Program-made: the position numbers and the translations under genes
Assembly: GCF_055900595.2 (NCBI RefSeq)
Contig: NZ_CM148325.1
Length of the DNA: 64,000 nucleotides
Reading direction: 5' to 3' (one strand)
Notes under the pieces: model-generated
The model's database searches: none
The model's input: the letters and a program-made list of their open reading frames with translations, nothing else
What the model was told of the DNA's origin: nothing
Part shown: positions 4,314-63,124 of the stretch, in pieces
Layout of the letters: every line of letters starts with the position of its first letter
How positions within the stretch are numbered: the first letter of the stretch is position 1

Positions 4314-5429
4314 TTAGAACTGGTAGACGATACCAACTGCAAACTGGTCATCAGCTGCTGCGCCAGTAATGGCGGCGTCATCTTTATCCAGCATGTTGAA
4401 TTTGTATGCAGTATAAACGTTCATGTTCTTATTAAAGTAGTACCAGGTACCAACTTCAATGTAGTTCACACGGTCAGCGTCAACATATCTATGTCCAGGT
4501 ACCCCTTTGATATCTTTACCTTTAGAGTACACATAACCTAAGGACGGACGCAGACCAAAGTCGAATTGATACTGAACAACCGCTTCAAAGTTCTGGGTTT
4601 CATTGATAAGTTGATCACGCATTATTGTATTGCCTTCTCGATCGGCAACACCTGTATCAATAGAACCCGGAGTCATATTACGAGTTTCGCCGTACATTAC
4701 AGCTGCGTAGACATTGTTCGCGTCATACTTTGCAGCCAACGACCACAGTTCAGCATTTGAACCGTTTCCATCGGCAACTTGATCGTTGGTGCGATCAGAT
4801 TTGCTATATGCACCAACGATACCAAAACCATTGATGTTATAGTCTACAGACAACGCATAGCCGTCACCATTTTGTTTCTTAGTGCTACGGTTGCTGTTTT
4901 TGCCTTGGTACTGAATCGCAAAATCAAGACCATCAACCAGGCCAAAGAAATCATAGTTACGGTAGGTTGCAACACCGTTGGTACGACCATTCATGAAGTT
5001 GTCAGCGGAAGCCCAGGAATCGCCACCCCATTCAACTAACATATCGGTATAAGCTGCGGCATCATAAGCAACACCGTAGTTACGGCCATAGTCAAATGAT
5101 CCTAACTCGTTATATTTCAAACCGGCGAAGGTTAAACGGGTTTTTTCCTGGTTTTCACCTTCGGGCTTGCTGGCGTCGAGGTTGTATTCAAACTGACCAA
5201 AACCAGTCAGTTCGCTGGTGATTTGGGTTTCACCTTTAACACCGAAACGAGCATAGGAGGTATCTTCGTTTTCGCTGTTATTATCATCAGTATTTGACCA
5301 GATGCGTTCGCCAACCATCTTGCCGTAGAAATCAACTTTATTGCCATCTTTATTATAAATTTCAGCCGCATTTGCTGCGCCAGCAACTAATAACGCCGGG
5401 ACCAGCATTGCCAGAACTTTTCTTTTCAT
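4314..5429 (-). CDS. yedS: Outer-membrane general porin, OmpC/NmpC family, apparently intact
   Basis: Track ORF 4314..5459; start trimmed to [21 protein letters not shown] signal peptide; C-terminal ...GIVYQF beta-barrel signature. Confidence 0.8.
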
Positions 5430-5976
5430 TATGTATTCCCTTGTGATTATAATCTTCATGAATATATCAATAAGTGCCGTTATCCAAAAAAAAGCACATT
5501 TGGATACTATTCTATGAAGTTCATTTTATTTTAAGGATTACATGTAACAAATGTATTTAAAAGATTTCAAAATGTTTCTAATCTATTTAATATAATTCGG
5601 GATTATGAATTCTGAATATAAACATTCATGAATATTATAAATGCATATCAATAAGTTATGAGTTGAGCAGAAAGATAGGGGGTATCAATGATTGTTGCGC
5701 TAAACACCTGGTGTGATCACGCGCACATTAATGAAGGAATAAAAAAAGCCGGCATCATGCCGGCCCCAAAAATATAAACAAGACGATAAAAGGCTAATAA
5801 CGTAAGCATCATGACACAGAATAATAAAAAGGTATAATTGTAATCAGTGCTAATATATTGATTAAATGAATTAATAAAGCCGATATCAAAGATAAATAAA
5901 ATCGCTCAAAACGATTTTTCCTGTATTCACTGCCGTTGCGCAAAAATTATCTATTTGTTCAAAAAATGAGTGAGTC

Positions 5977-6360
5977 TTGACTGGCTCATCCAATGTGGAA
6001 AAATGTGACTTTTATCACATAATAGTACTAAGTCTGAATTTTCCGGGTTATCTCAAAATGGAATACGGTTCGACAAAGATGGAAGAGAGACTCTCTCGCA
6101 GCCCTGGCGGCAAACTGGCTTTGTGGGCTTTCTATACATGGTGTGGCTATTTCGTCTGGGCAATGGCGCGTTACATCTGGGTGATGAGCCGGATCCCCGA
6201 TGCCCCCGTGTCGGGATTTGAAAGCGATTTAGGCTCTACCGCGGGAAAGTGGTTAGGGGCACTGGTCGGATTTTTATTTATGGCTCTGGTCGGGGCATTG
6301 TTAGGCAGCATTGCCTGGTACACCCGACCTCGTCCCGCACGTAGCAGACGCTATGAATAA
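5977..6360 (+). CDS. yedR: Small inner-membrane protein YedR
   Basis: ORF with two predicted TM helices; start uncertain (TTG at 5977, GTG at 5995 or ATG at 6058). Confidence 0.55.
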   Translation: MTGSSNVEKCDFYHIIVLSLNFPGYLKMEYGSTKMEERLSRSPGGKLALWAFYTWCGYFVWAMARYIWVMSRIPDAPVSGFESDLGSTAGKWLGALVGFLFMALVGALLGSIAWYTRPRPARSRRYE

Positions 6361-6399
6361 AAACTGCTAAGGTGGCGACTCTTTGGCAACGGAGCGCGT

Positions 6400-7095
6400 A
6401 TGGACTTACAACACTGGCAGGCACAGTTCGAAAACTGGTTGAAAAACCATCATCAGCACCAGGACGCGGCCCATGACGTGTGTCATTTTCGCCGCGTCTG
6501 GGCTACGGCACAGAAGCTGGCGGCAGATGACGATGTCGATATGCTGGTGATTTTAACCGCCTGTTATTTTCACGATATTGTGAGCCTGGCGAAAAATCAT
6601 CCGCAAAGGCAGCGTTCTTCAATCCTGGCGGCAGAAGAGACGCGTCGCCTGCTCCGTGAAGAGTTCGAGCAATTTCCGGCGGAGAAAATCGAGGCCGTTT
6701 GTCATGCCATTGCCGCTCACAGTTTCAGCGCGCAAATCGCCCCCTTAACAACGGAAGCTAAAATTGTCCAGGATGCGGATCGGCTGGAAGCCCTGGGGGC
6801 GATTGGCCTGGCGCGCGTGTTTGCCGTTTCAGGGGCATTGGGCGTGGCGCTGTTTGATGGTGAAGATCCGTTCGCACAGCATCGCCCGCTTGATGATAAA
6901 CGCTACGCGCTGGATCATTTCCAGACTAAGTTGCTGAAGCTACCGCAAACCATGCAAACCGCAAGAGGCAAGCAGCTGGCGCAGCACAACGCGCATTTTT
7001 TAGTCGAGTTTATGGCGAAGCTCAGTGCCGAACTGGCGGGGGAGAATGAAGGTGTCGATCACAAGGTGATAGATGCGTTTTCATCCGCTGGCTGA
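6400..7095 (+). CDS. yedJ: HD-domain phosphohydrolase YedJ
   Basis: 231-aa ORF with an HD motif (CYFHDIV). Confidence 0.8.
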
Positions 7096-7161: not shown

Positions 7162-8580
7162 ATGCAGGAAAATATATCAGTAACCGATTCATACAGCACC
7201 GGGAATGCCGCACAGGCAATGCTGGAGAAACTGCTGCAAATTTATGATGTTAAAACGTTGGTGGCGCAGCTTAATGGTGTAGGTGAGAATCACTGGAGCG
7301 CGGCAATTTTAAAACGTGCGCTGGCGAATGACTCGGCATGGCACCGTTTAAGTGAGAAAGAGTTCGCCCATCTGCAAACGTTATTACCCAAACCACCGGC
7401 ACATCATCCGCATTATGCGTTTCGCTTTATCGATCTATTCGCCGGAATTGGCGGCATCTGTCGCGGTTTTGAATCGATTGGCGGACAGTGCGTGTTTACC
7501 AGCGAATGGAACAAACATGCGGTACGCACTTATAAAGCCAACCATTATTGCGATCCGGCGACGCATCATTTTAATGAAGATATCCGCGACATCACCCTCA
7601 GCCATAAAGAAGGCGTGAGTGATGAGGCGGCGGCGGAACATATTCGTCAACACATTCCTGAACACGATGTTTTACTGGCCGGTTTCCCTTGTCAGCCATT
7701 TTCGCTGGCTGGCGTATCGAAAAAGAACTCGCTCGGGCGGGCGCACGGTTTTGCCTGCGATACCCAGGGCACGCTGTTTTTTGATGTGGTACGCATTATC
7801 GACGCGCGTCGTCCGGCGATGTTTGTGCTCGAAAACGTCAAAAACCTGAAAAGTCACGACCAGGGTAAAACGTTCCGCATCATCATGCAGACGCTGGACG
7901 AACTGGGCTATGACGTGGCTGATGCAGAAGATAATGGGCCAGACGATCCGAAAATCATCGACGGCAAACATTTTCTGCCGCAGCACCGTGAACGCATCGT
8001 GCTGGTGGGTTTTCGTCGCGATCTGAATCTGAAAGCCGATTTTACCCTGCGTGATATCAGCGAATGTTTCCCTGCGCAGCGAGTGACGCTGGCGCAGCTG
8101 TTGGACCCGATGGTCGAGGCGAAATATATCCTGACGCCGGTGCTGTGGAAGTACCTCTATCGATATGCGAAAAAACATCAGGCGCGCGGTAACGGCTTCG
8201 GTTATGGAATGGTTTATCCGAACAATCCGCAAAGCGTCACGCGTACGCTGTCTGCGCGTTATTACAAAGATGGCGCGGAAATTTTAATCGATCGCGGCTG
8301 GGATATGGCCAAAGGTGAGAAAGACTTTGACGATCCGCAGAATCAGCAACATCGTCCACGTCGGTTAACGCCTCGGGAATGCGCGCGCTTAATGGGTTTT
8401 GAAGCGCCGGGAGAAGCGAAATTCCGCATTCCGGTTTCGGACACTCAGGCCTATCGCCAGTTCGGTAACTCGGTGGTCGTGCCGGTCTTTGCCGCGGTGG
8501 CAAAACTGCTTGAGCCAAAAATCAAACAGGCGGTGGCGTTGCGTCAGCAAGAGGCACAACATGGCCGACGTTCACGATAA
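7162..8580 (+). CDS. dcm: DNA-cytosine C5 methyltransferase Dcm
   Basis: Motifs FAGIGG and PCQPFS; start trimmed to MQENISVTD (residue 4 of the track ORF). Confidence 0.92.
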
Positions 8581-22993: not shown

Positions 22994-26318
<3,325 letters not shown>

Positions 26319-26532
26319 CGCGCACCTCGTGGCTGATTATGGACGGCGTTATTGGCAAAGTGGAACAAGACTCACTCCCGGGTCAGCAAACTCGAAAAAT
26401 TGACGCTCCCATTATTTGTGCTTTCGTTTTTTTCTATCCGCCAATAAACCCGTTTTTTTGTTGCTATTTAGCGCCTTTGTCTTATTGACTTACTGGTAGG
26501 CTTTGCTACCAGAAATTATCCGGGAGACGAAA
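26319..26532. promoter_or_regulatory. Divergent fliF / fliE promoter region
   Basis: Intergenic region between divergent fliF and fliE; FlhD4C2-dependent class 2 status is inferred from K-12 knowledge, no binding box was mapped here. Confidence 0.5.
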
Positions 26533-26847
26533 ATGTCAGCGATACAGGGGATTGAAGGGGTTATCAGCCAGTTACAGGCTACGGCGATGAGTGCGCGTGC
26601 ACAGGAATCACTGCCACAACCGACCATTAGTTTTGCCGGGCAGCTGCACGCCGCGCTCGATCGCATAAGCGATACACAAACAGCCGCCCGCACGCAGGCA
26701 GAAAAATTCACCCTCGGTGAACCCGGCGTGGCGTTAAACGATGTGATGACCGATATGCAAAAAGCCTCAGTTTCTATGCAAATGGGGATTCAGGTGCGTA
26801 ATAAGCTGGTGGCGGCGTATCAGGAAGTGATGTCCATGCAGGTGTAG
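26533..26847 (+). CDS. fliE: Flagellar hook-basal body protein FliE
   Basis: Start trimmed to [10 protein letters not shown]... (104 aa). Confidence 0.9.
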
Positions 26848-27179
26848 GTTTTGTAACCTGTTGGTAATTACATCCCATCTGCCCGCGTGGGCATGGATGG
26901 GGCAAACTCACCCTATTTCTGGTTTAAAATGGATACCTGATCCTGAAAGTTTTCTGCCATCCACGATCCGTAAACGCGATAACATGTTTTGTCTTCGCTT
27001 TGCTCATAGGAAGAGTGAACTCTTTTGTTAGCCTGGGGTTCCTTCTGATCATTATTGTTCCTGCCTTTATCTCTTGCCACGCCAGAGCCCCCTGGATACA
27101 CATACACCAGGATGAAAACGGTGAGTTGTGTTCAAACTGTAGTACAATTCTCTCCAGTATGAACAGGAAAGAATATGCT

Positions 27180-27512
27180 ATGAACCCTTATATTTATCTT
27201 GGTGGCGCAATACTTGCAGAGGTCATTGGTACAACCTTAATGAAGTTTTCAGAGGGGTTTACACGGTTATGGCCCTCTGTTGGCACAATTATTTGCTATT
27301 GTGCATCATTTTGGTTATTAGCTCAGACACTGGCTTATATACCTACAGGGATTGCTTATGCTATCTGGTCAGGAGTCGGTATCGTTCTGATTAGTTTGCT
27401 TTCCTGGGGATTTTTTGGCCAACGACTGGACTTGCCAGCCATCATAGGCATGATGTTGATTTGTGCCGGTGTGTTAGTCATTAACTTGTTGTCACGAAGC
27501 GCACCGCATTAA
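27180..27512 (+). CDS. emrE: Small multidrug resistance (SMR) efflux transporter EmrE
   Basis: 110-aa four-TM protein MNPYIYLGGAILAEVIGTTLMKFSEGF... with the conserved Glu14; ATG at 27180 inside a longer track ORF. Confidence 0.9.
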   Translation: MNPYIYLGGAILAEVIGTTLMKFSEGFTRLWPSVGTIICYCASFWLLAQTLAYIPTGIAYAIWSGVGIVLISLLSWGFFGQRLDLPAIIGMMLICAGVLVINLLSRSAPH

Positions 27513-27680
27513 AAAATAATCATCCTTGAGATAACAGGAATCTGATTTGTGCATATTATGGCTAATGTTCGGGGCAACTTTATAATTATGATTGCATTTG
27601 CGCGATCATTGCGCCTTTTTGCATAATGAGATCAATGCACATCAAATAAAATAACGATAGGTCACAACAAAGAGGTTTTT

Positions 27681-28232
27681 ATGAAAAAACTTATCGTTTC
27701 AAGTGTATTGGCATTCATAACATTTTCTGCGCAGGCCGCAGCATTTCAGGTCACTAGTAATGAAATAAAAACAGGAGAGCAACTTACAACGTCTCATGTA
27801 TTTTCTGGATTTGGGTGTGAGGGGGGTAATACATCGCCCTCATTAACCTGGTCTGGTGCTCCAGAAGGCACCAAAAGCTTTGCCGTAACTGTGTATGATC
27901 CAGATGCGCCTACAGGCAGCGGATGGTGGCACTGGACTGTTGCTAATATTCCAGCAACGGTAACATATTTGCCCGCTGATGCAGGAAGACGTGATGGTAC
28001 AAAACTTCCGACTGGTGCTGTCCAAGGCCGAAATGATTTTGGCTATGCGGGATTTGGTGGAGCATGTCCTCCCAAAGGAGATAAACCCCATCATTACCAG
28101 TTTAAAATATGGGCTCTAAAAACTGATAAGATTCCTGTGGATTCTAATTCCAGCGGAGCGTTAGTTGGTTATATGCTTAATGCCAATAAAATTGCAACCG
28201 CTGAGATAATACCCGTTTATGAGGTAAAGTAG
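27681..28232 (+). CDS. ybcL: Periplasmic PEBP/RKIP-family protein YbcL
   Basis: 183-aa ORF with signal peptide; matches YbcL. Confidence 0.85.
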   Translation: MKKLIVSSVLAFITFSAQAAAFQVTSNEIKTGEQLTTSHVFSGFGCEGGNTSPSLTWSGAPEGTKSFAVTVYDPDAPTGSGWWHWTVANIPATVTYLPADAGRRDGTKLPTGAVQGRNDFGYAGFGGACPPKGDKPHHYQFKIWALKTDKIPVDSNSSGALVGYMLNANKIATAEIIPVYEVK

Positions 28233-28241
28233 GATAAGAGT

Positions 28242-29039
28242 ATGCTGGCAAAAGATAGGACTAACCTAAAGATTGAAGAAATACGGATGCATAAACATCA
28301 TGAGATTCACAGGGTTAAGCCTCTTATGCCAGCTTTATGTCGTATCCGTCAGGGAAAAAAAGTTATCAATTGGGAGACGCATAGTCTAACTGTTGATAAT
28401 AATCAGATAATATTATTTCCCTGTGGATATGAATTTTATATTGCGAATTACCCAGAAGCAGGTCTTTATCTTGCAGAAATGCTTTATTATCCCATTGATC
28501 TAATTGAAAAGTTCCAAAATCTTTATGCGATAACCGATCAAATTCGTAACACGACAGGTTTCTGCTTACCTCAGAATCCCGAGTTAATATATTGTTGGGA
28601 GCAACTAAAAACATCTATTTCCCGAGGCTTCTCAACGCAAATTCAGGAACACTTAGCAATGGGCGTTCTACTTTCATTAGGAGCACATCATGTTAATTGT
28701 TTACTTTTATCAGATAGTAAACAATCATTAATAAGTCGTTGTTATAACCTAATGCTATCCGAACCTGGAACAAAATGGACAGCAAACAAGGTAGCGAGAT
28801 ATCTCTACATTTCTGTTTCCACATTGCATCGCCGTCTGGCAAGCGAGGGAGTAAGTTTTCAAAGTATATTGGACGACGTGAGGTTAAATAATGCGTTGTC
28901 TGCTATACAAACGACAGTAAAACCCATCAGCGAGATTGCCAGGGAAAATGGTTACAAGTGTCCTTCTCGTTTTACTGAAAGGTTCCATAATCGTTTTAAG
29001 ATAACACCAAGAGAGCTAAGAAAAGCGTCCAGAGAGTAA
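28242..29039 (+). CDS. ybcM: AraC-family transcriptional regulator YbcM
   Basis: 265-aa ORF with C-terminal AraC-type HTH. Confidence 0.82.
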
Positions 29040-29330
29040 AAGTATTTTATGAAGGAGCAACAGCATCGATTTTTATTTTAGAAAATAAATACGGCATACT
29101 CAACCTATTGGAGCCTGAACAATCCGGTGACTTCTGCGCTAATCGGGGACGTTTATAAGCACATATAATTGATATTATCGTCCTCCATCACAATTTCAGA
29201 AATGCACGTGTGATTTTTTTGCATCCGGCGTTTGGACTATGTGGAGTTCAAGAGTGGGAAAGTTACAAGAGGTTGAGGGGATAATTAAAGGGATGCTTAT
29301 GACATTAGATATCCGGATAGGTACGGATAT

Positions 29331-29390
29331 CGTTGTTATTAAATCTAGTTTGTTGTTATTAAATCTAGTTCGTTGTTATTAAATCTGGTT
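29331..29390. repeat. Three tandem copies of a 20-bp unit (YGTTGTTATTAAATCTRGTT)
   Basis: Direct head-to-tail copies at 29331-29350, 29351-29370 and 29371-29390, differing at one or two positions each. Confidence 0.9.
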
Positions 29391-30019
29391 TATACGTTAA
29401 GATGCAACTACAGCAGAAATTGCCACTGTTAATTTTTTCATCGTGAGCCCTTTTATTTGAACTATTATTTAAAAATGATGTCACTGCACTATAAATATTC
29501 ATCCAATCAATGAGATTATTTCAAGATGTAAGTTTTAGTTTCTCATTTAAATTGTGAAGTAGATCCCTATCTTTATCTGAACTGTTTCTATTGCACACAA
29601 TGCATGACTATTTTGTGAACGAATATAAATTTGGTAGTCAAATTATATTAAAGGTTGTTATTTATGATTGACTCATAATTTATTTATTTAATTTAAATAG
29701 CCTAGAAATAACCATGGAAATTATTTGCATGATGTTTGTTTGGATTTATTAATGTAATTGAGGTGGTTTTATTTAATACGCAATATAGCGCCGCTTGATA
29801 TTAGTTCTATTTTTTTTGCGTAAGATAGATGAGACAAACAGAGACGCATAATGGTTTGCAAGGCTCTAATACTTTGATGTTGAGGATGTGATGGGGCATG
29901 TACGGGGCATAGTACAATGATGTCCATGCTGGTGTAGATAATCTCCAGGCTTATCCGGTGCGCCGTAAAACCCCGTCCTTCAGGGCAGGGATATAAGGCG
30001 CGGTTTTCCACCTGACCAG

Positions 30020-30443
30020 GTGTTTGCTGTTGTTCAATGTATTGGCGGATGACGGATATTGGCGCACCTCCGCAGCTACTGGCAAAATAGCCAGCACTCC
30101 ACAAAACGCCTTTGTAGTAATACCTGACTGCAATATCTGGTCGATCTCGTCGCAGTCACCTACCCGATACGCCTTTGAGGCTGTTTACCAGACTGGATAT
30201 CGCCAGTTTGGGAGGATAGTTAATTAACAAATGGACGTGATCTGGTTCGCCATCCATTTCAACCAGTTCAGCTTCAAAATCAGCGCATACATTTGAAAAG
30301 TAAGCGCGTAGTTTTTCTGTCGCGTCATGGTCAAAAATCTGACGTCGGTATCTGGTGACAAAGACCAGGTGAACATGCATCAGGAAAACACAATGCCTTC
30401 CACGCCGGATATCGGTTTCTTTTTTCACAGACCAAAGTATCAT
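30020..30443 (-). pseudogene. tnpA: IS200/IS605 TnpA (HuH Y1 transposase) interrupted by an in-frame TGA after codon 95
   Basis: N-terminal 95 aa carry the HuH motif (HVHLVF); TGA at 30156-30158; the same frame continues ...YYYKGVLWSAGYFASSCGGAPISVIRQYIEQQ (conserved TnpA C-terminus). Confidence 0.75.
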
Positions 30444-30450
30444 TTGGCCT

Positions 30451-31659
30451 GTGAAACGACTACAGGCATTTAAATTCCAGTTAAGACCAGGTGATCAACA
30501 GGAGTGTGAAATGAGGCGCTTCGCAGGCGCATGTCGTTTCGTTTTCAATCGTGCTCTGGCGCTTCAGAATGAGAATCATGAGGCCGGTAATAAATACATC
30601 CCTTACGGGAAAATGGCTTCCTGGCTGGTTGAGTGGAAAAATGCCACTGAAACGCAATGGCTTAAAGATTCTCCCTCACAGCCATTGCAACAGTCACTGA
30701 AAGACCTTGAGCGGGCTTACAAAAACTTCTTCCGGAAGCGGGCTGCTTTTCCCCGATTCAAAAAGCGGGGACAGAATGATGCATTCCGCTACCCGCAGGG
30801 CGTTAAGCTCGATCAGGAAAACAGCCGTATTTTTCTGCCGAAACTGGGCTGGATGCGTTACCGCAATAGCCGTCAGGTCACGGGTGTTGTGAAAAATGTC
30901 ACTGTCAGCCAGTCCTGCGGTAAGTGGTACATCAGTATTCAGACAGAAAGTGAAGTATCCACTCCGGTTCACCCTTCAGCATCAATGGTCGGGCTGGATG
31001 CTGGCGTGGCTAAACTCGCCACGCTGTCAGATGGCACAGTCTTTGAGCCTGTAAACAGTTTTCAGAAAAACCAGAAGACGCTGGCGAGACTTCAGCGACA
31101 GTTAAGCCGCAAGGTCAAATTCAGCAACAACTGGCAGAAGCAGAAACGCAAAATACAGCGACTGCATTCCCGTATCGCAAATATCCGCAGGGACTACCTT
31201 CACAAAGTCACAACGACCGTCAGCAAAAACCACGCAATGATAGTCATTGAGGATTTGAAGGTCAGCAACATGTCAAAGTCAGCAGCGGGTACGGTCAGCC
31301 AGCCGGGGCGCAATGTCCGGGCAAAATCAGGTTTAAACCGTTCGATACTGGATCAGGGCTGGTATGAAATGCGCCGCCAGCTTGAGTACAAGCAGCTCTG
31401 GCGTGGCGGTCAGGTGCTTGCTGTTCCGCCAGCGTACACAAGCCAGCGTTGCGCGTGCTGTGGTCATACAGCGAAAGAAAATCGCCTGTCACAAAGTCAA
31501 TTCAGATGCCAGGTATGTGGATATACAGCGAACGCCGATGTAAACGGCGCTCGTAACATTTTAGCGGCGGGGCACGCCGTTCTTGCCTGTGGAGAGATGG
31601 TGCAGTCAGGCCGCCCGTTGAAGCAGGAACCCACCGAAATGATTCAGGCGACAGCCTGA
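30451..31659 (+). CDS. tnpB: TnpB (IS605 OrfB) RuvC-like RNA-guided endonuclease, apparently intact
   Basis: 402-aa ORF with RuvC-I (GLDAG), RuvC-II (IVIEDLKV), zinc finger (CACCGH...CQVCG) and RuvC-III ([10 protein letters not shown]). GTG start at 30451; an ATG at 30511 is the alternative. Confidence 0.85.
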
Positions 31660-31698
31660 ACGTAGCAGGGATCCTCGTCCTTCAGGGCGTGGAGGATG

Positions 31699-32370
31699 TC
31701 AACAAACAGGTTGAATTAACTCCGCGCCCTGGTTTTTGACATTACCTACCGCGCGCGATACCGGGTGCCAGGTGAACTGGTTTGCTGGCACACAGCCGTT
31801 GGTAGCAATTTCTGATGCTTCTTTACCGCCAATCTCTTGCCGCATCCATTCCCGCGCAGCTTCTGGCGACAGTACCAGCGGGCGGCGGTCATGAATATCT
31901 ACCAGACCCTGGTCTGCTGCTGCAGTGACAATTAAAAATCCTTCGGCTTCGTCACCGCGCTCAAACGGTGTGCTACCTATCGCGGCCATAAAAACAGGTT
32001 GTCCGTCAGCACGATAGATAAAATAAGGCTGTTTTTTGTCGCCTTCTTTTTTCCACTCAAACCAGCCATCGGCAAAACAGATTGCCCGACCATGTTGCCA
32101 GAGCGGTTTAAACATACGACTGGTGGCCGCAGTTTCTACGCGGGCGTTAATCAGCGGCGGTTTATCCCACCATCCGGGAGCATATCCCCAGAAAACCGGA
32201 TCCAGATGAAGGTGTTCATCACGTTCACTGAGCAGAAGAACTTTGGTTCCCGGCGCGACGTTGTATCTGCCAATGGGTTCGGGATCATAGGGAATATCGC
32301 GTTCAATATCTTCCGCGAGAAGCGCAAGGTAATCTTCACGCGTTTGGGATTGGGCAAAGCGTCCACACAT
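31699..32370 (-). CDS. yedK: SOS-response-associated peptidase (SRAP) YedK
   Basis: Start trimmed to MCGRFAQ (catalytic Cys2). Confidence 0.85.
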   Translation of the reverse strand: MCGRFAQSQTREDYLALLAEDIERDIPYDPEPIGRYNVAPGTKVLLLSERDEHLHLDPVFWGYAPGWWDKPPLINARVETAATSRMFKPLWQHGRAICFADGWFEWKKEGDKKQPYFIYRADGQPVFMAAIGSTPFERGDEAEGFLIVTAAADQGLVDIHDRRPLVLSPEAAREWMRQEIGGKEASEIATNGCVPANQFTWHPVSRAVGNVKNQGAELIQPVC

Positions 32371-32478
32371 AGCAACCTCCTGAGAGCACACTGAAAAGAA
32401 TAGGAGAGGGGGCGGGTAAAATCTATGTGGTACAGAGGCAACGATATTCCCGCTGTTGGCCACAGCGGGAATGAGGGA

Positions 32479-32712
32479 TTACTTCTGAATTAAATAACGA
32501 ATGGTCGGCCCGTCTTGCTGAATATCCAGCACCGTATAGCCGTGATTACGAGCATCCAGTGGAATATTATTGATCGACTGCGGACAGTCGCTCACCACTT
32601 CCAGGATCTCACCTTTTTTTAACTGCGGCATCGCCTCAAGGGTTGCGACTGCCGGATAAGGGCAGGGTTCACCCACCATATCAAGACGGTAATCAGGAAT
32701 GATATTTTTCAT
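32479..32712 (-). CDS. yedF: TusA-like sulfur-carrier protein YedF
   Basis: 77-aa ORF with CPxP motif. Confidence 0.85.
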   Translation of the reverse strand: MKNIIPDYRLDMVGEPCPYPAVATLEAMPQLKKGEILEVVSDCPQSINNIPLDARNHGYTVLDIQQDGPTIRYLIQK

Positions 32713-33914
32713 GCGATCTCCTTAGCAGTCTGCGGTGCCGCACGGCGGAAGAAGCGTTTTTCCCAGCCGATAATCAACATCAGCGCAGTAAACAACAGCA
32801 AATATGTCACCAGCAGGCCACCCATCGGGCCAAAGGTTTTCAGCAGGTTGATTTTGTCCCAGTCGGTGGCCAGCGCCGGAGCGAAATCATCCCAGTAATA
32901 CGCCAGAATGGTTGAGCCGATCACATTGCCCAGACCGACCCACCAGTAGTGCACCTGACCTTCTACCGCGCGGTACATCCAACCGGTTTCGCAGCCGCCT
33001 GCCAGCACGATGCCAAAACCAAACAGTAAACCACCAATTACCGCGTTTGGTCCCGCCCACATGATTTTGGGTTCAACGCCTAACTGTACGTAACTGAAGA
33101 TCCCGATGGCACTCACCGCCATACCGATAATGATTGCTTTCGCCATATGGGTACGTCCGGTGATCCACATATCGCGGAACGCCGAAGTAAAGCAGATTTG
33201 CGCACGTTCAATCAGTAAACCAAAGCCGACGCCAAACAGCATTGCCAGCCCCAGTTTTGGTTGGTTCATCGCCGTGAGCAGCGCCCAGCCCAGCATACCG
33301 AAAAAGACCAGCATCCCGAGACGAAAACGACGCCGCGCCTGATCCGGTTTTTGCGTCAGCGGTGAGGCGGCAGAAACTTTCTGCATTTTCACGGGAATAC
33401 GGAAGATGGGCAGCAGGGTAAAGCGTGCGCCAAACCATGAACCAATGGCAGTGGCGATGGCAAAGAACCAGGCATGCAGCGAGAACTGAGGAATACCGGT
33501 AAAGAACGCCGCCAGGTTACAGCCCATTGCCAGACGCGCGCCAAAACCAGCGATAATACCGCCAATAATGGCCTGCATAATGCGGATACGGCTGCGTGGC
33601 ATGCGCAGTTTGACATTGTTGGCCCACAGCGCTGCGGCAAAGCAGCCGCCAAACATGCCGAGGATCATCATCCCGTCGATGCGGGTTAATGGCGATCCTT
33701 CCAGATGGATAATTTTAAAATAACCCCACTCTTCAGCATGGACGCCAAACAGCTGCAGGAGCTGGCCGCCCCAACGGGTAAATTCACCCGTGACAGCCCA
33801 AAAGGTGCCAGTAATGCCAAAATAGTAAGTGGAGAGAATACCCGCCGCGATGACCGCAGGGATGGGTGCCCAGAATTTAATCAACCAGGCGTGTTTGAAT
33901 TGCTGCCATGACAT
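32709..33914 (-). CDS. yedE: YedE/YeeE-family inner-membrane transporter
   Basis: 401-aa polytopic ORF overlapping yedF by 4 nt. Confidence 0.85.
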   Translation of the reverse strand: MSWQQFKHAWLIKFWAPIPAVIAAGILSTYYFGITGTFWAVTGEFTRWGGQLLQLFGVHAEEWGYFKIIHLEGSPLTRIDGMMILGMFGGCFAAALWANNVKLRMPRSRIRIMQAIIGGIIAGFGARLAMGCNLAAFFTGIPQFSLHAWFFAIATAIGSWFGARFTLLPIFRIPVKMQKVSAASPLTQKPDQARRRFRLGMLVFFGMLGWALLTAMNQPKLGLAMLFGVGFGLLIERAQICFTSAFRDMWITGRTHMAKAIIIGMAVSAIGIFSYVQLGVEPKIMWAGPNAVIGGLLFGFGIVLAGGCETGWMYRAVEGQVHYWWVGLGNVIGSTILAYYWDDFAPALATDWDKINLLKTFGPMGGLLVTYLLLFTALMLIIGWEKRFFRRAAPQTAKEIA

Positions 33915-54669: not shown

Positions 54670-55173
54670 TCAATGCAGCTGGTGTGACACGACATTCAGA
54701 ACATGTTGGTCGGTCTGCACAGGGCACATACCCGCAAGTTTCGCACTGCGCACTTCATCAAGAATGGTTTGCAGCAACAGACCATCATGCTGCTGTTCTT
54801 TTTCCAGATCGCGCAGGAAATTGACGGTTGAATCATCATTCAGTTCTTTCGCTTCATCGGCTAACTGTGCCAACGTACTAGAACGTTGCTCGTATTCTTC
54901 CATCGTTTTTTGGAACAGTTCTTCCAGAGAGTTCAGTTTTTCACCGGGAACATCAATGGCTTTAACGATGGGGGTAGCGCCGACACTCTTCATAAAGTTA
55001 AACATGCGCATCATTTGGGTCACATTACTCTGTGCCTGGGCGCGAAGGAAAGTGGCGGTGCCGTTCAGACTCTGTTCAGAACACCAGTTACTCAGGTGAA
55101 GGTAGAGATTGGATGCGTAAAACTCGCGGTTCATTTGAGAGTTGAGTTTGAGAAGCATTCCAGCGGTTGCCAT
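54670..55173 (-). CDS. ftnB: Ferritin-like protein FtnB
   Basis: 167-aa ferritin-fold ORF. Confidence 0.85.
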
Positions 55174-55969
55174 ACCTAATATCCTTATATCCAGAAGTGG
55201 AGAGGTGCAAGATAAATCAAAACACCATAATTACTGTTTGCAGAATAATTCCTTTCTGCCGGTCCGAAATGTGATCGTGGAGTCAATTCTGACGATGATC
55301 TGAAATAAGAATAACGTCTGAACGGGTATAAGAAAATGCTTAAATCATCAAGTTTATATATTTTTACATTTCATTGATGAAATCAATGTAACTGCAATGA
55401 ATTTTAATGATAGCGCTTTTTGTATCTTGTTGATATTAATCAATGAATTTGAATTCATGATGAAGTGATGATTTTATAAAACGTTTTTTCATTTTTGCGA
55501 GATGGCTCTCATTATACGTGTTCTGTTAATTAATGAGCACAGTGATAATTAATGGCGAAATGAATGACGTACATTTTCCACATCTTTGAGTTGCGGTTAT
55601 TACACCATTTCAAAAACTCAACGCCAGGTAATGCGGCCTATTGACTGGTTAAAAAGAAGACATCCCGCATGGGTACCAAAGACAACAAGGATTTCCAGGC
55701 TAATCTTATGGATTAATCTGCTGTGCATTCGACAATTTGTCTGACAAATTGGCTTTCCCTTATGTCTTTTCCCGCTAAATTTATGCACGTTCTCACTGTA
55801 ATTCTGCGATGTGATATTGCTCTCCTATGGAGAATTAATTTCTCGCTAAAACTATGTCAACACGGTCACTTATCTTTTAGTTAAAAGGTAATGCTTTGTT
55901 TTCCGATTAATTTAACGAATGTCATTCGTTTTTGCCCTACACAAAACGACACTAAAGCTGGAGAGAACC

Positions 55970-61916: not shown

Positions 61917-62345
61917 TTAATCACCCGTAAGTGGAACTAACAGCACATCGACCTCACTTGAGGCAATCACTCTTTTCGCCGAGCAGGATGCTCGCGAAAA
62001 GAAACTGTGATTGTGATTACCGCAAATCACCAAATCGAAATGATGTTTGTGACATACTTCCAGAATATGTTCGCTTAACTCACCGTAGGCAATAAACGTC
62101 TTGTCAACGGGATACCCCGCATCCTGAATTAACTTATCAAGAAAGCTTTGCGTTTCTTCTTGCATCACGCTGCGTAAATCTTCAAGCATCGGCGCGGCTA
62201 ATTGATTGTACATTTCCGGGTCGGAAGCGAGAGTAATTAAACTGATGTGTCCCTTTACTGGCCTGGCGATAGATACCGCTTTTGCCAGCAGTTGCTGACT
62301 TTCCGGTGTAACCGCAACAGCGACAAGAATATTGCTATAGCTCAT
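61917..62345 (-). CDS. uspC: Universal stress protein C
   Basis: 142-aa UspA-family ORF. Confidence 0.88.
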   Translation of the reverse strand: MSYSNILVAVAVTPESQQLLAKAVSIARPVKGHISLITLASDPEMYNQLAAPMLEDLRSVMQEETQSFLDKLIQDAGYPVDKTFIAYGELSEHILEVCHKHHFDLVICGNHNHSFFSRASCSAKRVIASSEVDVLLVPLTGD

Positions 62346-63124
62346 AACCTGTTCCTTATTCTGTGAACTTCAGGTGACATTAAAGCTTTACTCCTAATGG
62401 AGAAACGACGCAATCCCAACTCGGTCAAACAGGTAAATATTAGTCTGATTATTAGTAAAGACAATTAATCAATCACTCCCGGTGATCATATAATTTCAAA
62501 TGTAATTATAAGAAAATAGTGTACTGATTCTCCGCATTAAACAAGTGGTTAATATATGTAAAACATTTCATTTAACATTATGTTGATTGTTGCCTTTCTT
62601 TGTATTTAATTAGTTTGTTGTGCGGTAAGTGTCTGTTTAAAAATAGCTTATCTGGTATTGCATGAAAGTGATTATTTATAGCAGATGATTATTTACGGTG
62701 AGTTATTTTAACTGTGCGCAACATCCCATTTCGATTATTCCTGTTTCATTTTTGCTTGCTAGCGTAGCGAAAAACTTTTTAACAGATTGAAATACACCCA
62801 AAACAAAAGTATGACTTATACATTTATGTTAAGTAATTGAGTGTTTTGTGTGATCTGCATCACACATTATTGAAAATCGCAGCCCCCCTCCGTTGTATGT
62901 GCGTGTAGTGACGAGTACAGTTGCGTCGATTTAGGAAAAATCTTAGATAAGTGTAAAGACCCCCTTCTATTTGTAAGGACTTATTAAACCAAAAAGGTGG
63001 CTCTGCTTATTGCAGCTTATCGCAACTATTCTAATGCTAATTATTTTTACCGGGGCTTCCCGGCGACATCACAGGGTGCGGTGAAACCGCATAAAAATAA
63101 AGTTGGTTATTCTGGGTGGGAATA
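62346..63124 (+). promoter_or_regulatory. flhDC promoter and long 5'-UTR regulatory region, with no IS insertion
   Basis: About 780-bp AT-rich intergenic region upstream of flhD and divergent from uspC; no long ORF; no IS terminal sequences seen. Confidence 0.6.

What the first reader, a model, noticed from the sequence alone, without database searches (positions are those of the whole stretch)
29040..29940. About 0.9 kb of strongly AT-rich, ORF-poor DNA between ybcM and the IS605-family element
No ORF of 60 aa or more falls in this stretch apart from the run-on tnpA frame; it contains long A/T runs (for example 29620-29760). Composition differs sharply from the flanking genes, suggesting horizontally acquired DNA that may be H-NS-bound, or an unannotated small RNA or small protein.
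Basis: seen in the sequence. Interest (0 to 1): 0.35.

Follow-up and report, generated by a model that had tools for sequence, protein, structure and literature searches.

The report
Orphaned prophage porin promoter, gene debris
The AT-rich, gene-free 0.9 kb is what remains of a decayed lambda-like prophage island in E. coli: scraps of two phage genes plus the complete control region of an NmpC/Lc-type porin gene that was itself deleted. It is ordinary genome decay, not a new gene.

Summary
Window 29040-29940 has 33.0% GC against a 49.0% window mean. It is the lowest-GC stretch in the 64 kb, falling to 24.3% over 300 bp, and its only ORF of 60 aa or more is the tnpA run-on frame.

The stretch is a mosaic of prophage debris in an E. 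coli island (emrE-ybcL-ybcM) between fliE and yedK:
- 29040-29246: DLP12-like ybcM/ylcH spacer.
- 29256-29355: last ~32 codons of a Q-antiterminator gene (quuD-like).
- 29332-29391: a 20-bp unit repeated three times; five other strains carry 1-5 copies.
- 29400/29401: a deletion junction that removed ~1.2 kb, including nearly all of a porin gene that is intact in Nissle 1917.
- 29441-29397, minus strand: the porin's first 14 codons.
- 29442-29955: the porin's intact AT-rich upstream region.

The proximal 129 bp of that upstream region is 91% identical to the characterised K-12 nmpC promoter region. An IS605-family element starts at 29956.

"Horizontally acquired" is supported. "H-NS-bound" is supported only by homology: the K-12 nmpC/essD spacer is H-NS-bound in published ChIP data. 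There is no support for an sRNA or small-protein gene. 1034 of 5426 complete E. coli genomes carry this allele, and other strains have lost the promoter as well. Interest is low.

The parts
29040..29246 (+). Spacer downstream of ybcM, homologous to the DLP12 ybcM-ylcH region. The ylcH start codon is lost (ATG in K-12, ATA here).
   Evidence: blastn places 28900-29246 on K-12 DLP12 L003 3828-4174 at 83.6% identity. Alignment A2. K-12 ylcH translation.
29256..29355 (+). 3' remnant (about the last 32 codons) of a lambdoid Q-antiterminator gene (quuD-like). It now forms part of a meaningless 47-aa ORF, 29239-29382.
   Evidence: 82.5% nucleotide identity to the quuD 3' end, L003 5957-6053. BLASTP gives 19/30 identical to QuuD residues 98-127, E = 3e-11.
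29332..29391 (.). 20-bp tandem repeat (GTTGTTATTAAATCTAGTTT), three copies, derived from the last codons and stop of the Q gene. Copy number varies between strains.
   Evidence: TRF reports period 20, 3.0 copies, 92% matches. Copies elsewhere: 1 in Nissle and EcPF18; 2 in O111:H8 99.1145, JKHS004 and IH5; 3 in W and ETEC6; 5 in Z0117EC0148.
29392..29401 (.). Deletion junction (ATACGTTAA|GATGCA, between 29400 and 29401). About 1.2 kb present in Nissle 1917 is missing here: the hairpin-rich sequence downstream of Q and of the porin, plus the porin CDS from about codon 15 onward.
   Evidence: Window 28900-29350 matches Nissle L004 5318-5768 and window 29401-29955 matches L004 7001-7555, while the Nissle porin CDS is at 5959-7041. 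The junction is identical in all porin-deleted strains examined.
29397..29441 (-). Remnant of the NmpC/Lc-type porin gene: start codon plus 13 signal-peptide codons, then a stop created at the junction (MKKLTVAISAVVAS*). It still holds the heptamer CAGUGGC (29428-29422), which is complementary to the RybB sRNA seed.
   Evidence: 40 of 41 nt identical to Nissle, K-12 nmpC and PA-2 lc. Translation. The Nissle porin is 90% identical to PA-2 Lc and matches Pfam Porin_1 at E = 1e-153. RybB duplex -13.9 kcal/mol (RybB sequence taken from memory).
29442..29779 (-). Porin 5' UTR, core promoter and upstream regulatory region, homologous to the DLP12 nmpC-essD spacer and the PA-2 lc upstream region. This is the most AT-rich part (25.7% GC).
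   Evidence: About 82% identity over 29401-29779 to DLP12, PA-2, 434 and other lambdoid phages. Against K-12, -129..-1 is 90.7% identical and -199..-1 is 83.9%. K-12 PnmpC lies within -199..-1 (PMC11677980).
29495..29524 (-). Inferred core promoter: -35 TTGAAA (29524-29519), 18-nt spacer, -10 GAATAT (29500-29495). The inferred start is G at 29489, which gives a 48-nt 5' UTR (29489-29442).
   Evidence: My inference from sequence conserved in all four aligned homologues. It is consistent with a sigma-70 promoter and a 'G' start reported for K-12 PnmpC (PMC11677980). It is not mapped experimentally, and the simple consensus scan did not pick it up.
29550..29571 (-). CRP (CAP) site, GATAGGGATCTACTTCACAATT. 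It is centred 71.5 bp upstream of the inferred start, a class I position.
   Evidence: The CAP site annotated in PA-2 record J02580 (L006 1434-1454) aligns here, and the TCACA half-site is intact. CRP activation of PnmpC is reported in PMC11677980.
29780..29955 (.). Distal, island-specific segment between the DLP12-like promoter region and the ancestral yedK stop codon. It contains an 11-12-bp tandem duplication at 29893-29915.
   Evidence: 98% identical to Nissle but only about 40-45% to DLP12 and PA-2, which is no real homology. No match in the phage collection. Present in 1555 E. coli genomes, always at this locus. TRF.
29956..31703 (+). IS200/IS605-family element that forms the right border. 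It carries a degenerate tnpA (minus strand, 30018-30443, with an internal stop) and an intact tnpB (30451-31659). It sits exactly at the yedK stop codon with no target duplication.
   Evidence: Empty-site comparison with Nissle: CTTATC|AAACAGG. Pfam Y1_Tnp, OrfB_IS605 and Cas12f1-like_TNB. RefSeq annotation.

Best explanation
**What it is (shown).** The stretch is non-coding debris of a DLP12-like lambdoid prophage remnant that sits between fliE and yedK in many E. coli genomes. The ancestral arrangement, still intact in Nissle 1917, is emrE-ybcL-ybcM, a ylcH remnant, a Q 3' remnant, a leftward-reading NmpC/Lc-type porin gene, its ~510-bp AT-rich upstream region, and then yedK.

**What happened in this lineage (shown).**
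- One ~1.2-kb deletion removed the porin gene but left its first 14 codons and its whole control region.
- A 20-bp unit at the Q stop codon then expanded by slippage to three copies.
- An IS605-family element inserted at the yedK stop codon.

The extreme AT-richness is therefore the normal composition of a phage-borne porin promoter region, now exposed as 'empty' DNA.

**How it most likely behaves (inferred).**
- It is probably coated by H-NS, as its K-12 homologue is.
- Where the promoter escapes silencing (37 C, cAMP-CRP), it starts a leftward transcript with a 48-nt leader and a 14-codon ORF.
- That transcript has no intrinsic terminator and runs antisense towards ybcM until Rho or RNases end it.
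- It has no selected function and is being lost: EcPF18-type strains have deleted it.
For: **Homology map**
- The blastn map against Nissle, K-12 DLP12 and EcPF18 accounts for every base from 28900 to 29955, apart from 9 unaligned bases at the older ylcH/Q junction (29247-29255) and the 50-bp repeat-and-junction stretch.
- The Nissle locus has an intact 360-aa porin. It matches Porin_1 at E = 1e-153 and is 90% identical to PA-2 Lc. It lies exactly where the window has the junction.
- The Q remnant is confirmed at protein level.
- The porin start and 40 of 41 nt of the signal-peptide codons are retained.

**Promoter region**
- It is 91% identical to K-12 over -129..-1.
- In K-12, PnmpC lies within -199..-1. 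It is sigma-70-dependent and CRP-activated, and 5' RACE shows it is active (PMC11677980).
- The CAP site annotated in PA-2 is conserved.
- nmpC rises 16.5-fold at 37 C against 23 C in K-12 MC4100 (PMC8544407). nmpC genes in CFT073 are also thermoregulated (PMC12890032).
- The K-12 nmpC/essD spacer is an H-NS-bound 'promoter island' in all the ChIP studies compiled in PMC3661553.

**Population**
- The junction is identical in every porin-deleted strain examined, with 1-5 repeat copies.
- The full allele is in 1034 of 5426 genomes.
- The distal promoter segment is in 1555 genomes, so roughly 510 still have the porin.
- EcPF18-type strains carry a second deletion (about 29412-30070) across a GCAGCTAC microhomology, which removed the promoter too.

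**Negative evidence**
- Rfam finds nothing.
- No conserved small ORF was found.
Against: - Nothing here measures transcription or H-NS occupancy in this strain.
- The -35/-10/start assignment is my inference. The simple sigma-70 scan did not call it: it found 2 promoter-like sites against 4.5 expected in shuffles.
- The H-NS high-affinity motif TCGATAAATT has only one 2-mismatch hit in the stretch.
- Only part of the K-12 promoter island aligns with the window (about 29522-29779, at roughly 72-84% identity), and the coordinate transfer between K-12 records is approximate.
- The orphan promoter is 97.8% identical to the porin-intact Nissle allele, no more diverged than the flanking genes. Decay after loss of the gene is therefore not yet visible in the sequence, and retention under selection is not excluded.
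Confidence: 0.85

Rival explanations
1. The orphaned porin promoter has been co-opted. It would make a short regulated RNA (48-nt leader, 14-codon ORF, repeat region) that acts either as a decoy for porin-targeting sRNAs such as RybB or as an antisense RNA to ybcM/ybcL.
For: - The promoter, 5' UTR and first codons are kept almost unchanged, 97.8% identical to Nissle.
- The RybB seed complement CAGUGGC is retained at codons 5-7. The duplex is -13.9 kcal/mol, and 2% of shuffles do as well.
- RybB binds within the first five codons of ompD (PMC4911921) and targets nmpC in E. coli (PMC3333887).
- There is no minus-strand intrinsic terminator before ybcM.
- The allele is common, in 1034 genomes.
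Against: - Retention is explained by the deletion being recent: there is one shared junction and the locus is no more diverged than its flanks.
- Many strains (about a fifth of matching records, judging by the spread sample) have gone on to delete the promoter, so it is dispensable.
- No terminator or stable 3' structure defines an sRNA.
- The homologous K-12 region is H-NS-bound and transcriptionally poor (PMC3661553).
- There are no expression data.
Confidence: 0.07
2. The stretch encodes an unannotated small protein.
For: - Several ORFs of 20-47 aa exist.
- One of them, on the minus strand from 29502 (MNIYSAVTSF...), is open in the window, in Nissle and in PA-2.
Against: - That ORF overlaps the near-invariant promoter and 5' UTR sequence. 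It starts upstream of the inferred transcription start, and it shifts frame in K-12 through a 1-nt indel.
- The 47-aa ORF is a Q-gene remnant that reads on into the repeats.
- The other six ORFs in the porin upstream region are broken by stops or lack starts in K-12 and PA-2.
- The two shortest ORFs in 29150-29285 were not tested for conservation.
Confidence: 0.02
3. The three 20-bp direct repeats next to an AT-rich tract are a functional protein-binding array, either an iteron-type replication origin or an operator array.
For: Three direct repeats with a 20-bp period, about two helical turns, lie next to the most AT-rich DNA in the window.
Against: - The ancestral state has a single copy, which is simply the end of the Q gene.
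- Copy number drifts from 1 to 5 among close relatives, as expected for slippage.
- There is no rep or initiator gene nearby, and the adjacent AT-rich DNA is accounted for as the porin promoter.
Confidence: 0.02

Closest known systems
The nmpC promoter region (PnmpC, the nmpC-essD spacer) of cryptic prophage DLP12 in E. coli K-12
   Same: - It occupies the same position, directly upstream of an NmpC-type porin start codon.
- Identity is 82% over 379 bp and 91% over the proximal 129 bp.
- The same conserved -35/-10 candidates and CRP site are present.
- It is AT-rich.
- The K-12 region is an H-NS-bound promoter island (PMC3661553) and a CRP-activated sigma-70 promoter (PMC11677980).
   Different: - Here the porin gene is deleted after codon 14. 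In K-12 it is disrupted near its 3' end by IS5.
- The region distal to about -340 is unrelated to DLP12.
- It abuts yedK and an IS605-family element rather than the lysis gene essD.
- It lies in the fliE-yedK island, not at the argU DLP12 site.
The lc porin gene upstream region of lambdoid phage PA-2 (GenBank J02580)
   Same: Identity is 81.6% over 29401-29770. The signal-peptide codons are shared. The annotated CAP site aligns to 29550-29571.
   Different: The second, distal CRP site of PA-2 falls in the part that is not homologous here. There is no lc coding sequence and no downstream lysis genes.
The intact fliE-yedK island allele of E. coli Nissle 1917 and other B2 strains (emrE-ybcL-ybcM-porin)
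   Same: It is the same locus and the same flanks, 97-98% identical on both sides of the junction.
   Different: Nissle keeps the 360-aa porin and the hairpin-rich sequence downstream of Q. It has one copy of the 20-bp unit and no IS605-family element.
'Promoter islands', also described as H-NS-silenced xenogeneic AT-rich DNA (Panyukov & Ozoline 2013, PMC3661553)
   Same: The DNA is AT-rich, horizontally acquired and intergenic. Its K-12 homologue is one of the 78 listed islands, and all the compiled ChIP studies show H-NS bound there.
   Different: H-NS occupancy and promoter density were not shown for this sequence. The simple consensus scan found no excess of promoter-like sites over composition-matched shuffles.

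Membership tests
NmpC/Lc (OmpD-type) lambdoid-prophage porin 5' regulatory region | Nucleotide homology to the characterised nmpC (DLP12) and lc (PA-2) upstream regions | tested here: met
   About 82% identity over 29401-29779. Against K-12, -129..-1 is 90.7% identical.
NmpC/Lc (OmpD-type) lambdoid-prophage porin 5' regulatory region | Directly abuts the porin start codon and signal-peptide codons | tested here: met
   ATG at 29441 on the minus strand, followed by MKKLTVAISAVVAS. 40 of 41 nt are identical to nmpC, lc and the Nissle porin.
NmpC/Lc (OmpD-type) lambdoid-prophage porin 5' regulatory region | CRP/CAP site at the position annotated in PA-2 | tested here: met
   L006 1434-1454 aligns to 29550-29571, and the TCACA half-site is intact.
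NmpC/Lc (OmpD-type) lambdoid-prophage porin 5' regulatory region | Drives a complete porin gene | tested here: not met
   The CDS is deleted after codon 14, and the junction at 29400/29401 creates a stop. It is an orphan member of the family.
NmpC/Lc (OmpD-type) lambdoid-prophage porin 5' regulatory region | Promoter activity, with CRP and temperature control | not testable with these tools
   Known only for K-12 nmpC (PMC11677980, PMC8544407) and CFT073 nmpC genes (PMC12890032).
H-NS-silenced xenogeneic DNA / promoter island | GC content far below the host genome | tested here: met
   33.0% against 49.0%, with a minimum of 24.3%. It is the lowest in the window.
H-NS-silenced xenogeneic DNA / promoter island | Horizontally acquired origin | tested here: met
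   Homologues exist in DLP12 and in lambdoid phages, and the locus is polymorphic among E. coli genomes.
H-NS-silenced xenogeneic DNA / promoter island | H-NS occupancy | not testable with these tools
   The K-12 homologue is bound in all the compiled ChIP studies (PMC3661553). The motif TCGATAAATT has only one 2-mismatch hit here, which is uninformative.
H-NS-silenced xenogeneic DNA / promoter island | Abnormally high density of promoter-like sites | tested here: inconclusive
   The simple sigma-70 scan found 2 sites against 4.5 +/- 2.1 in shuffles. PlatProm, the tool that defines these islands, was not available.
Small RNA gene | Match to a described RNA family | tested here: not met
   Rfam cmscan at E <= 1 over 26000-33000 gave no hit inside 29040-29955.
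Small RNA gene | A promoter and an intrinsic terminator that delimit a short transcript | tested here: not met
   There is no minus-strand terminator between 29441 and 26800. The only plus-strand candidate (29308-29331) lies inside the Q remnant.
Small protein gene | An ORF kept intact across diverged homologues | tested here: not met
   Seven ORFs in the porin upstream region were tested. Six are broken in K-12 and PA-2. The seventh overlaps the invariant promoter/UTR sequence and shifts frame in K-12. The ORFs in 29150-29385 were not tested this way.
Iteron-type origin | A fixed array of repeats with an adjacent initiator gene | tested here: not met
   Copy number runs from 1 to 5, and the single ancestral copy is the end of the Q gene. 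There is no rep gene.

The most novel reading that the evidence does not exclude
The promoter left behind by the porin deletion still fires at 37 C under cAMP-CRP control. Its short leader-plus-14-codon RNA, which keeps the RybB seed target CAGUGGC, would act as a decoy for envelope-stress sRNAs or as an antisense regulator of ybcM/ybcL. That would be a new regulatory RNA born from a gene deletion.
Probability: 0.06. Interest if true: 0.45.

Novelty: new member of a known kind. Interest (0 to 1): 0.12.

Why it matters
It matters mainly as a clean negative. A strikingly AT-rich, unannotated 0.9 kb in about a fifth of complete E. coli genomes is fully explained, apart from nine unaligned bases at an older junction, as prophage decay. 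There is no need to invoke a new gene.

It also documents an ordered decay series at one locus:
- intact porin;
- porin deleted with the promoter orphaned, plus an IS605-family insertion and a 20-bp repeat of variable copy number;
- promoter deleted as well.

This series could serve as a lineage marker. It is also a natural test of what an orphaned, H-NS-prone promoter does. Annotators could label the Q and porin remnants as pseudogene fragments.

Tried and rejected
- **Rfam scan at a permissive threshold.** Nothing fell in the stretch. Weak sub-threshold hits appeared only at the IS right end.
- **Simple promoter and terminator scans.** There was no enrichment over shuffles. They did not recover the conserved porin promoter, so the promoter model rests on alignment and literature.
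- **H-NS nucleation motif search.** It gave one weak hit, which is uninformative.
- **Iteron or origin reading of the 20-bp repeats.** Rejected because the copy number varies and the ancestral single copy is the end of the Q gene.
- **Small-ORF reading.** Not supported by the ORF conservation test in K-12 and PA-2 for the seven ORFs in the porin upstream region.
- **Search for phage homologues of the distal 29770-29955 segment.** None found, so its origin is unresolved. It may be the old prophage/chromosome junction.
- **Exact PnmpC coordinates.** I looked in PMC11677980 for the -35, -10 and start positions, but the text gives only the -199..-1 interval and a 'G' start; the figure is not held.
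- **AppY paper and rpoZ ChIP paper.** Neither gave anything specific on the nmpC upstream region.
- **CFT073 c2348.** I did not verify that c2348 is the fliE-yedK island porin, so that paper is used only as general support.

Full report
**1. Observation**

The stretch 29040-29940 is real and unusual in composition.
- It has 33.0% GC against 49.0% for the 64-kb window (z = -3.0 for 901-bp windows).
- The lowest 300-bp window (24.3%, 29451-29750) and the lowest 600-bp window (28.7%) in the whole 64 kb lie inside it.
- A/T-only runs of up to 25 bp occur, the longest at 29675-29699.
- The only ORF of 60 aa or more that overlaps it is 29769-30104 on the minus strand, the tnpA frame reading out of the IS. 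All other ORFs are 47 aa or shorter.
- RefSeq annotates nothing here in strains with near-identical sequence.

Two corrections are needed.
- The composition jump is sharp only on the right, where the IS is 50.7% GC. On the left, ybcM is already 37.8% GC, and the island sequence from 26850 to 29955 is 38.7%.
- The true right border is 29955/29956.

**2. Context**

The window is E. coli, 99.7-99.8% identical to strains W and ETEC6. The gene order is fliE, emrE, ybcL, ybcM, the stretch, an IS200/IS605-family element (degenerate tnpA, intact tnpB), yedK, yedF. The emrE-ybcL-ybcM genes are a second copy of genes known from the cryptic lambdoid prophage DLP12, 89-93% identical but lacking ybcK.

**3. 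Anatomy**

Pairwise blastn against three reference loci resolves the stretch. The loci are K-12 DLP12 (L003), Nissle 1917 (L004) and EcPF18 (L005).

- **(a) 29040-29246.** This aligns with the DLP12 ybcM-ylcH spacer (83.6%). The ylcH start codon is lost.
- **(b) 29256-29355.** This is the 3' end of a Q-antiterminator gene. It is 82.5% identical to the end of quuD, and BLASTP gives 19/30 identical to QuuD residues 98-127 (E = 3e-11). The junction between (a) and (b) is shared with Nissle, so an older deletion removed ybcN through most of Q.
- **(c) 29332-29391.** This is a 20-bp unit present three times. Nissle and EcPF18 have one copy, which is simply the last Q codons and stop. Three other strains have two copies and one has five. 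It is a slippage-prone minisatellite, not a fixed array.
- **(d) Junction at 29400/29401.** Nissle carries 1232 bp (L004 5769-7000) where the window has the 50 bp of 29351-29400. Most of those 50 bp are the two extra repeat copies, so the net loss is about 1.2 kb. The lost DNA is hairpin-rich sequence downstream of Q plus a leftward porin gene (CDS 5959-7041). That porin is 360 aa, matches Pfam Porin_1 at E = 1e-153, and is 90% identical to the Lc porin of phage PA-2. The junction ATACGTTAA|GATGCA is identical in every porin-deleted strain examined, which implies one ancestral event.
- **(e) 29441-29397, minus strand.** The porin ATG and 13 further codons survive (MKKLTVAISAVVAS, then a junction-created stop). 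40 of 41 nt are identical to nmpC, lc and the Nissle gene.
- **(f) 29442-29955.** This is the porin's upstream region, 97.8% identical to Nissle throughout. The part 29442-29779 (25.7% GC) is homologous to the DLP12 nmpC-essD spacer and to the lc upstream region of PA-2, 434 and many other lambdoid phages (about 82%). Against K-12, identity is 90.7% over -129..-1 and 83.9% over -199..-1. The distal 176 bp (29780-29955) has no phage homologue. It occurs only at this locus, in 1555 E. coli genomes.
- **(g) IS border.** The empty site in Nissle is CTTATC|AAACAGG. This shows that a 1748-bp IS605-family element (29956-31703) inserted without target duplication exactly at the yedK stop codon, turning ...QPV* into ...QPVC*.

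**4. What is known about the homologous promoter**

- In K-12, PnmpC lies within -199..-1 of the nmpC start codon. It is a sigma-70 promoter with a 'G' start mapped by 5' RACE. CRP activates it at two sites, and OmpR, IHF and MprA repress it. It is active enough to drive the IS5 transposase gene nested in nmpC (PMC11677980).
- nmpC mRNA rises 16.5-fold at 37 C against 23 C in K-12 MC4100 (PMC8544407). nmpC genes of CFT073 behave similarly (PMC12890032). I did not verify which CFT073 gene corresponds to this island.
- The K-12 nmpC(-)/essD(+) spacer is one of 78 AT-rich 'promoter islands'. The table marks it as H-NS-bound in all the ChIP data sets compiled (PMC3661553). By approximate coordinate transfer, about 257 bp of that island aligns with window 29522-29779.
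- The CAP site annotated in PA-2 record J02580 aligns to 29550-29571 and keeps its TCACA half-site.

**5. Promoter model (inference)**

In the block that is invariant across the four aligned homologues I place these elements:
- -35 TTGAAA at 29524-29519;
- an 18-nt spacer;
- -10 GAATAT at 29500-29495;
- a G start at 29489, which gives a 48-nt leader.

This puts the CRP site at -71.5, a canonical class I position. The generic consensus scan did not call this promoter, so it remains a model.

**6. Mechanism**

*Shown.* The AT-rich 'empty' DNA is a porin control region whose gene was deleted, joined to scraps of ylcH and Q.

*Inferred.*
- It is H-NS-coated, like its K-12 homologue.
- When de-repressed (37 C, cAMP-CRP), it starts a leftward transcript that encodes only 14 codons.
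- The transcript meets no intrinsic terminator before ybcM and is presumably ended by Rho or degraded.

*Dispensability.* EcPF18-type strains carry the same porin junction plus a second deletion (about 29412-30070). It spans a GCAGCTAC microhomology and removes the promoter and the left end of the IS. In the even-step sample, about a fifth of matching records are of this type.

*Counts.*
- 1034 of 5426 complete genomes carry the full stretch.
- About 510 keep the porin, which is 1547 with the distal segment minus 1034.
- About 1540 match only through DLP12-like nmpC copies elsewhere.

**7. Rivals**

- **Co-opted regulatory RNA.** The remnant keeps the RybB seed complement CAGUGGC at codons 5-7. 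The duplex is -13.9 kcal/mol and 2% of shuffles are as good; the RybB sequence was taken from memory. RybB binds the first five codons of ompD and targets nmpC (PMC4911921, PMC3333887). This is possible but unsupported: there is no terminator, further loss is frequent, and there are no expression data. I put it at about 6-7%.
- **Small protein.** Not supported. Six of the seven ORFs tested in the porin upstream region are broken in K-12 and PA-2. The seventh overlaps the invariant promoter/UTR sequence and shifts frame in K-12.
- **Iteron origin or operator array.** Rejected because the copy number varies and the ancestral single copy is the end of the Q gene.

**8. Comparison and novelty**

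The stretch works like, and is homologous to, the nmpC/lc porin regulatory region. It fails only the feature 'drives a complete porin gene', so it is an orphan member of that family. It also fits the class of H-NS-prone xenogeneic AT-rich DNA, but occupancy is untested here.

Nothing categorically new is present. Interest is low (0.12).

Noticed in passing
window 29332-29391; L004 5750-5769; L005 7293-7311; L007-L010 from 2893: A 20-bp unit derived from the end of the Q gene varies from 1 to 5 copies among otherwise near-identical E. coli strains. It could serve as a typing marker for the porin-deleted lineage.
   Followed up: partly
window 29956-31703: A 1748-bp IS200/IS605-family element is inserted, without target duplication, exactly at the yedK stop codon, which adds one Cys to YedK. 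Its tnpA is degenerate (internal stop) but its tnpB (402 aa) is intact. In the samples examined its presence tracks the porin deletion.
   Followed up: partly
window 31586-31629 (+): A weak, sub-threshold Rfam hit to RAGATH-18 (25.4 bits, E = 0.22) lies at the 3' end of tnpB, near the right end of the IS. This is where a TnpB guide (omega) RNA would be expected.
   Followed up: no
L005 (EcPF18) 7311-7330, compared with window 29403-29411 and 30071-30078: A second deletion across an 8-bp microhomology (GCAGCTAC) fuses the porin remnant to the inside of tnpA. It removes the porin promoter and the left end of the IS. The annotated 175-aa 'TnpA' in that strain is therefore a fusion artefact.
   Followed up: partly
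L004 (Nissle) 5780-5958 and L003 (K-12) 6056-6245: A conserved run of four GC-rich hairpins lies between the Q stop and the porin stop. It is entirely missing from the window. From memory, this is where the DLP12 sRNA IpeX and the terminators lie. I did not verify this.
   Followed up: no
window 27514-27526, compared with L003 366-2453: The island copy of the emrE-ybcL-ybcM cluster lacks ylcJ and the ybcK recombinase gene, which separate emrE from ybcL in DLP12.
   Followed up: no
window 5291-6090, 55161-55660, 62311-62880: These are three other stretches where 300-bp GC falls below 33%. They were not examined.
   Followed up: no
L003 8541-8601 (K-12 nmpC upstream): In K-12, a 1-nt deletion relative to PA-2, Nissle and the window puts an upstream ATG (60 nt before the nmpC ATG) in frame with nmpC. 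This is probably meaningless if the mapped start lies downstream of it.
   Followed up: no
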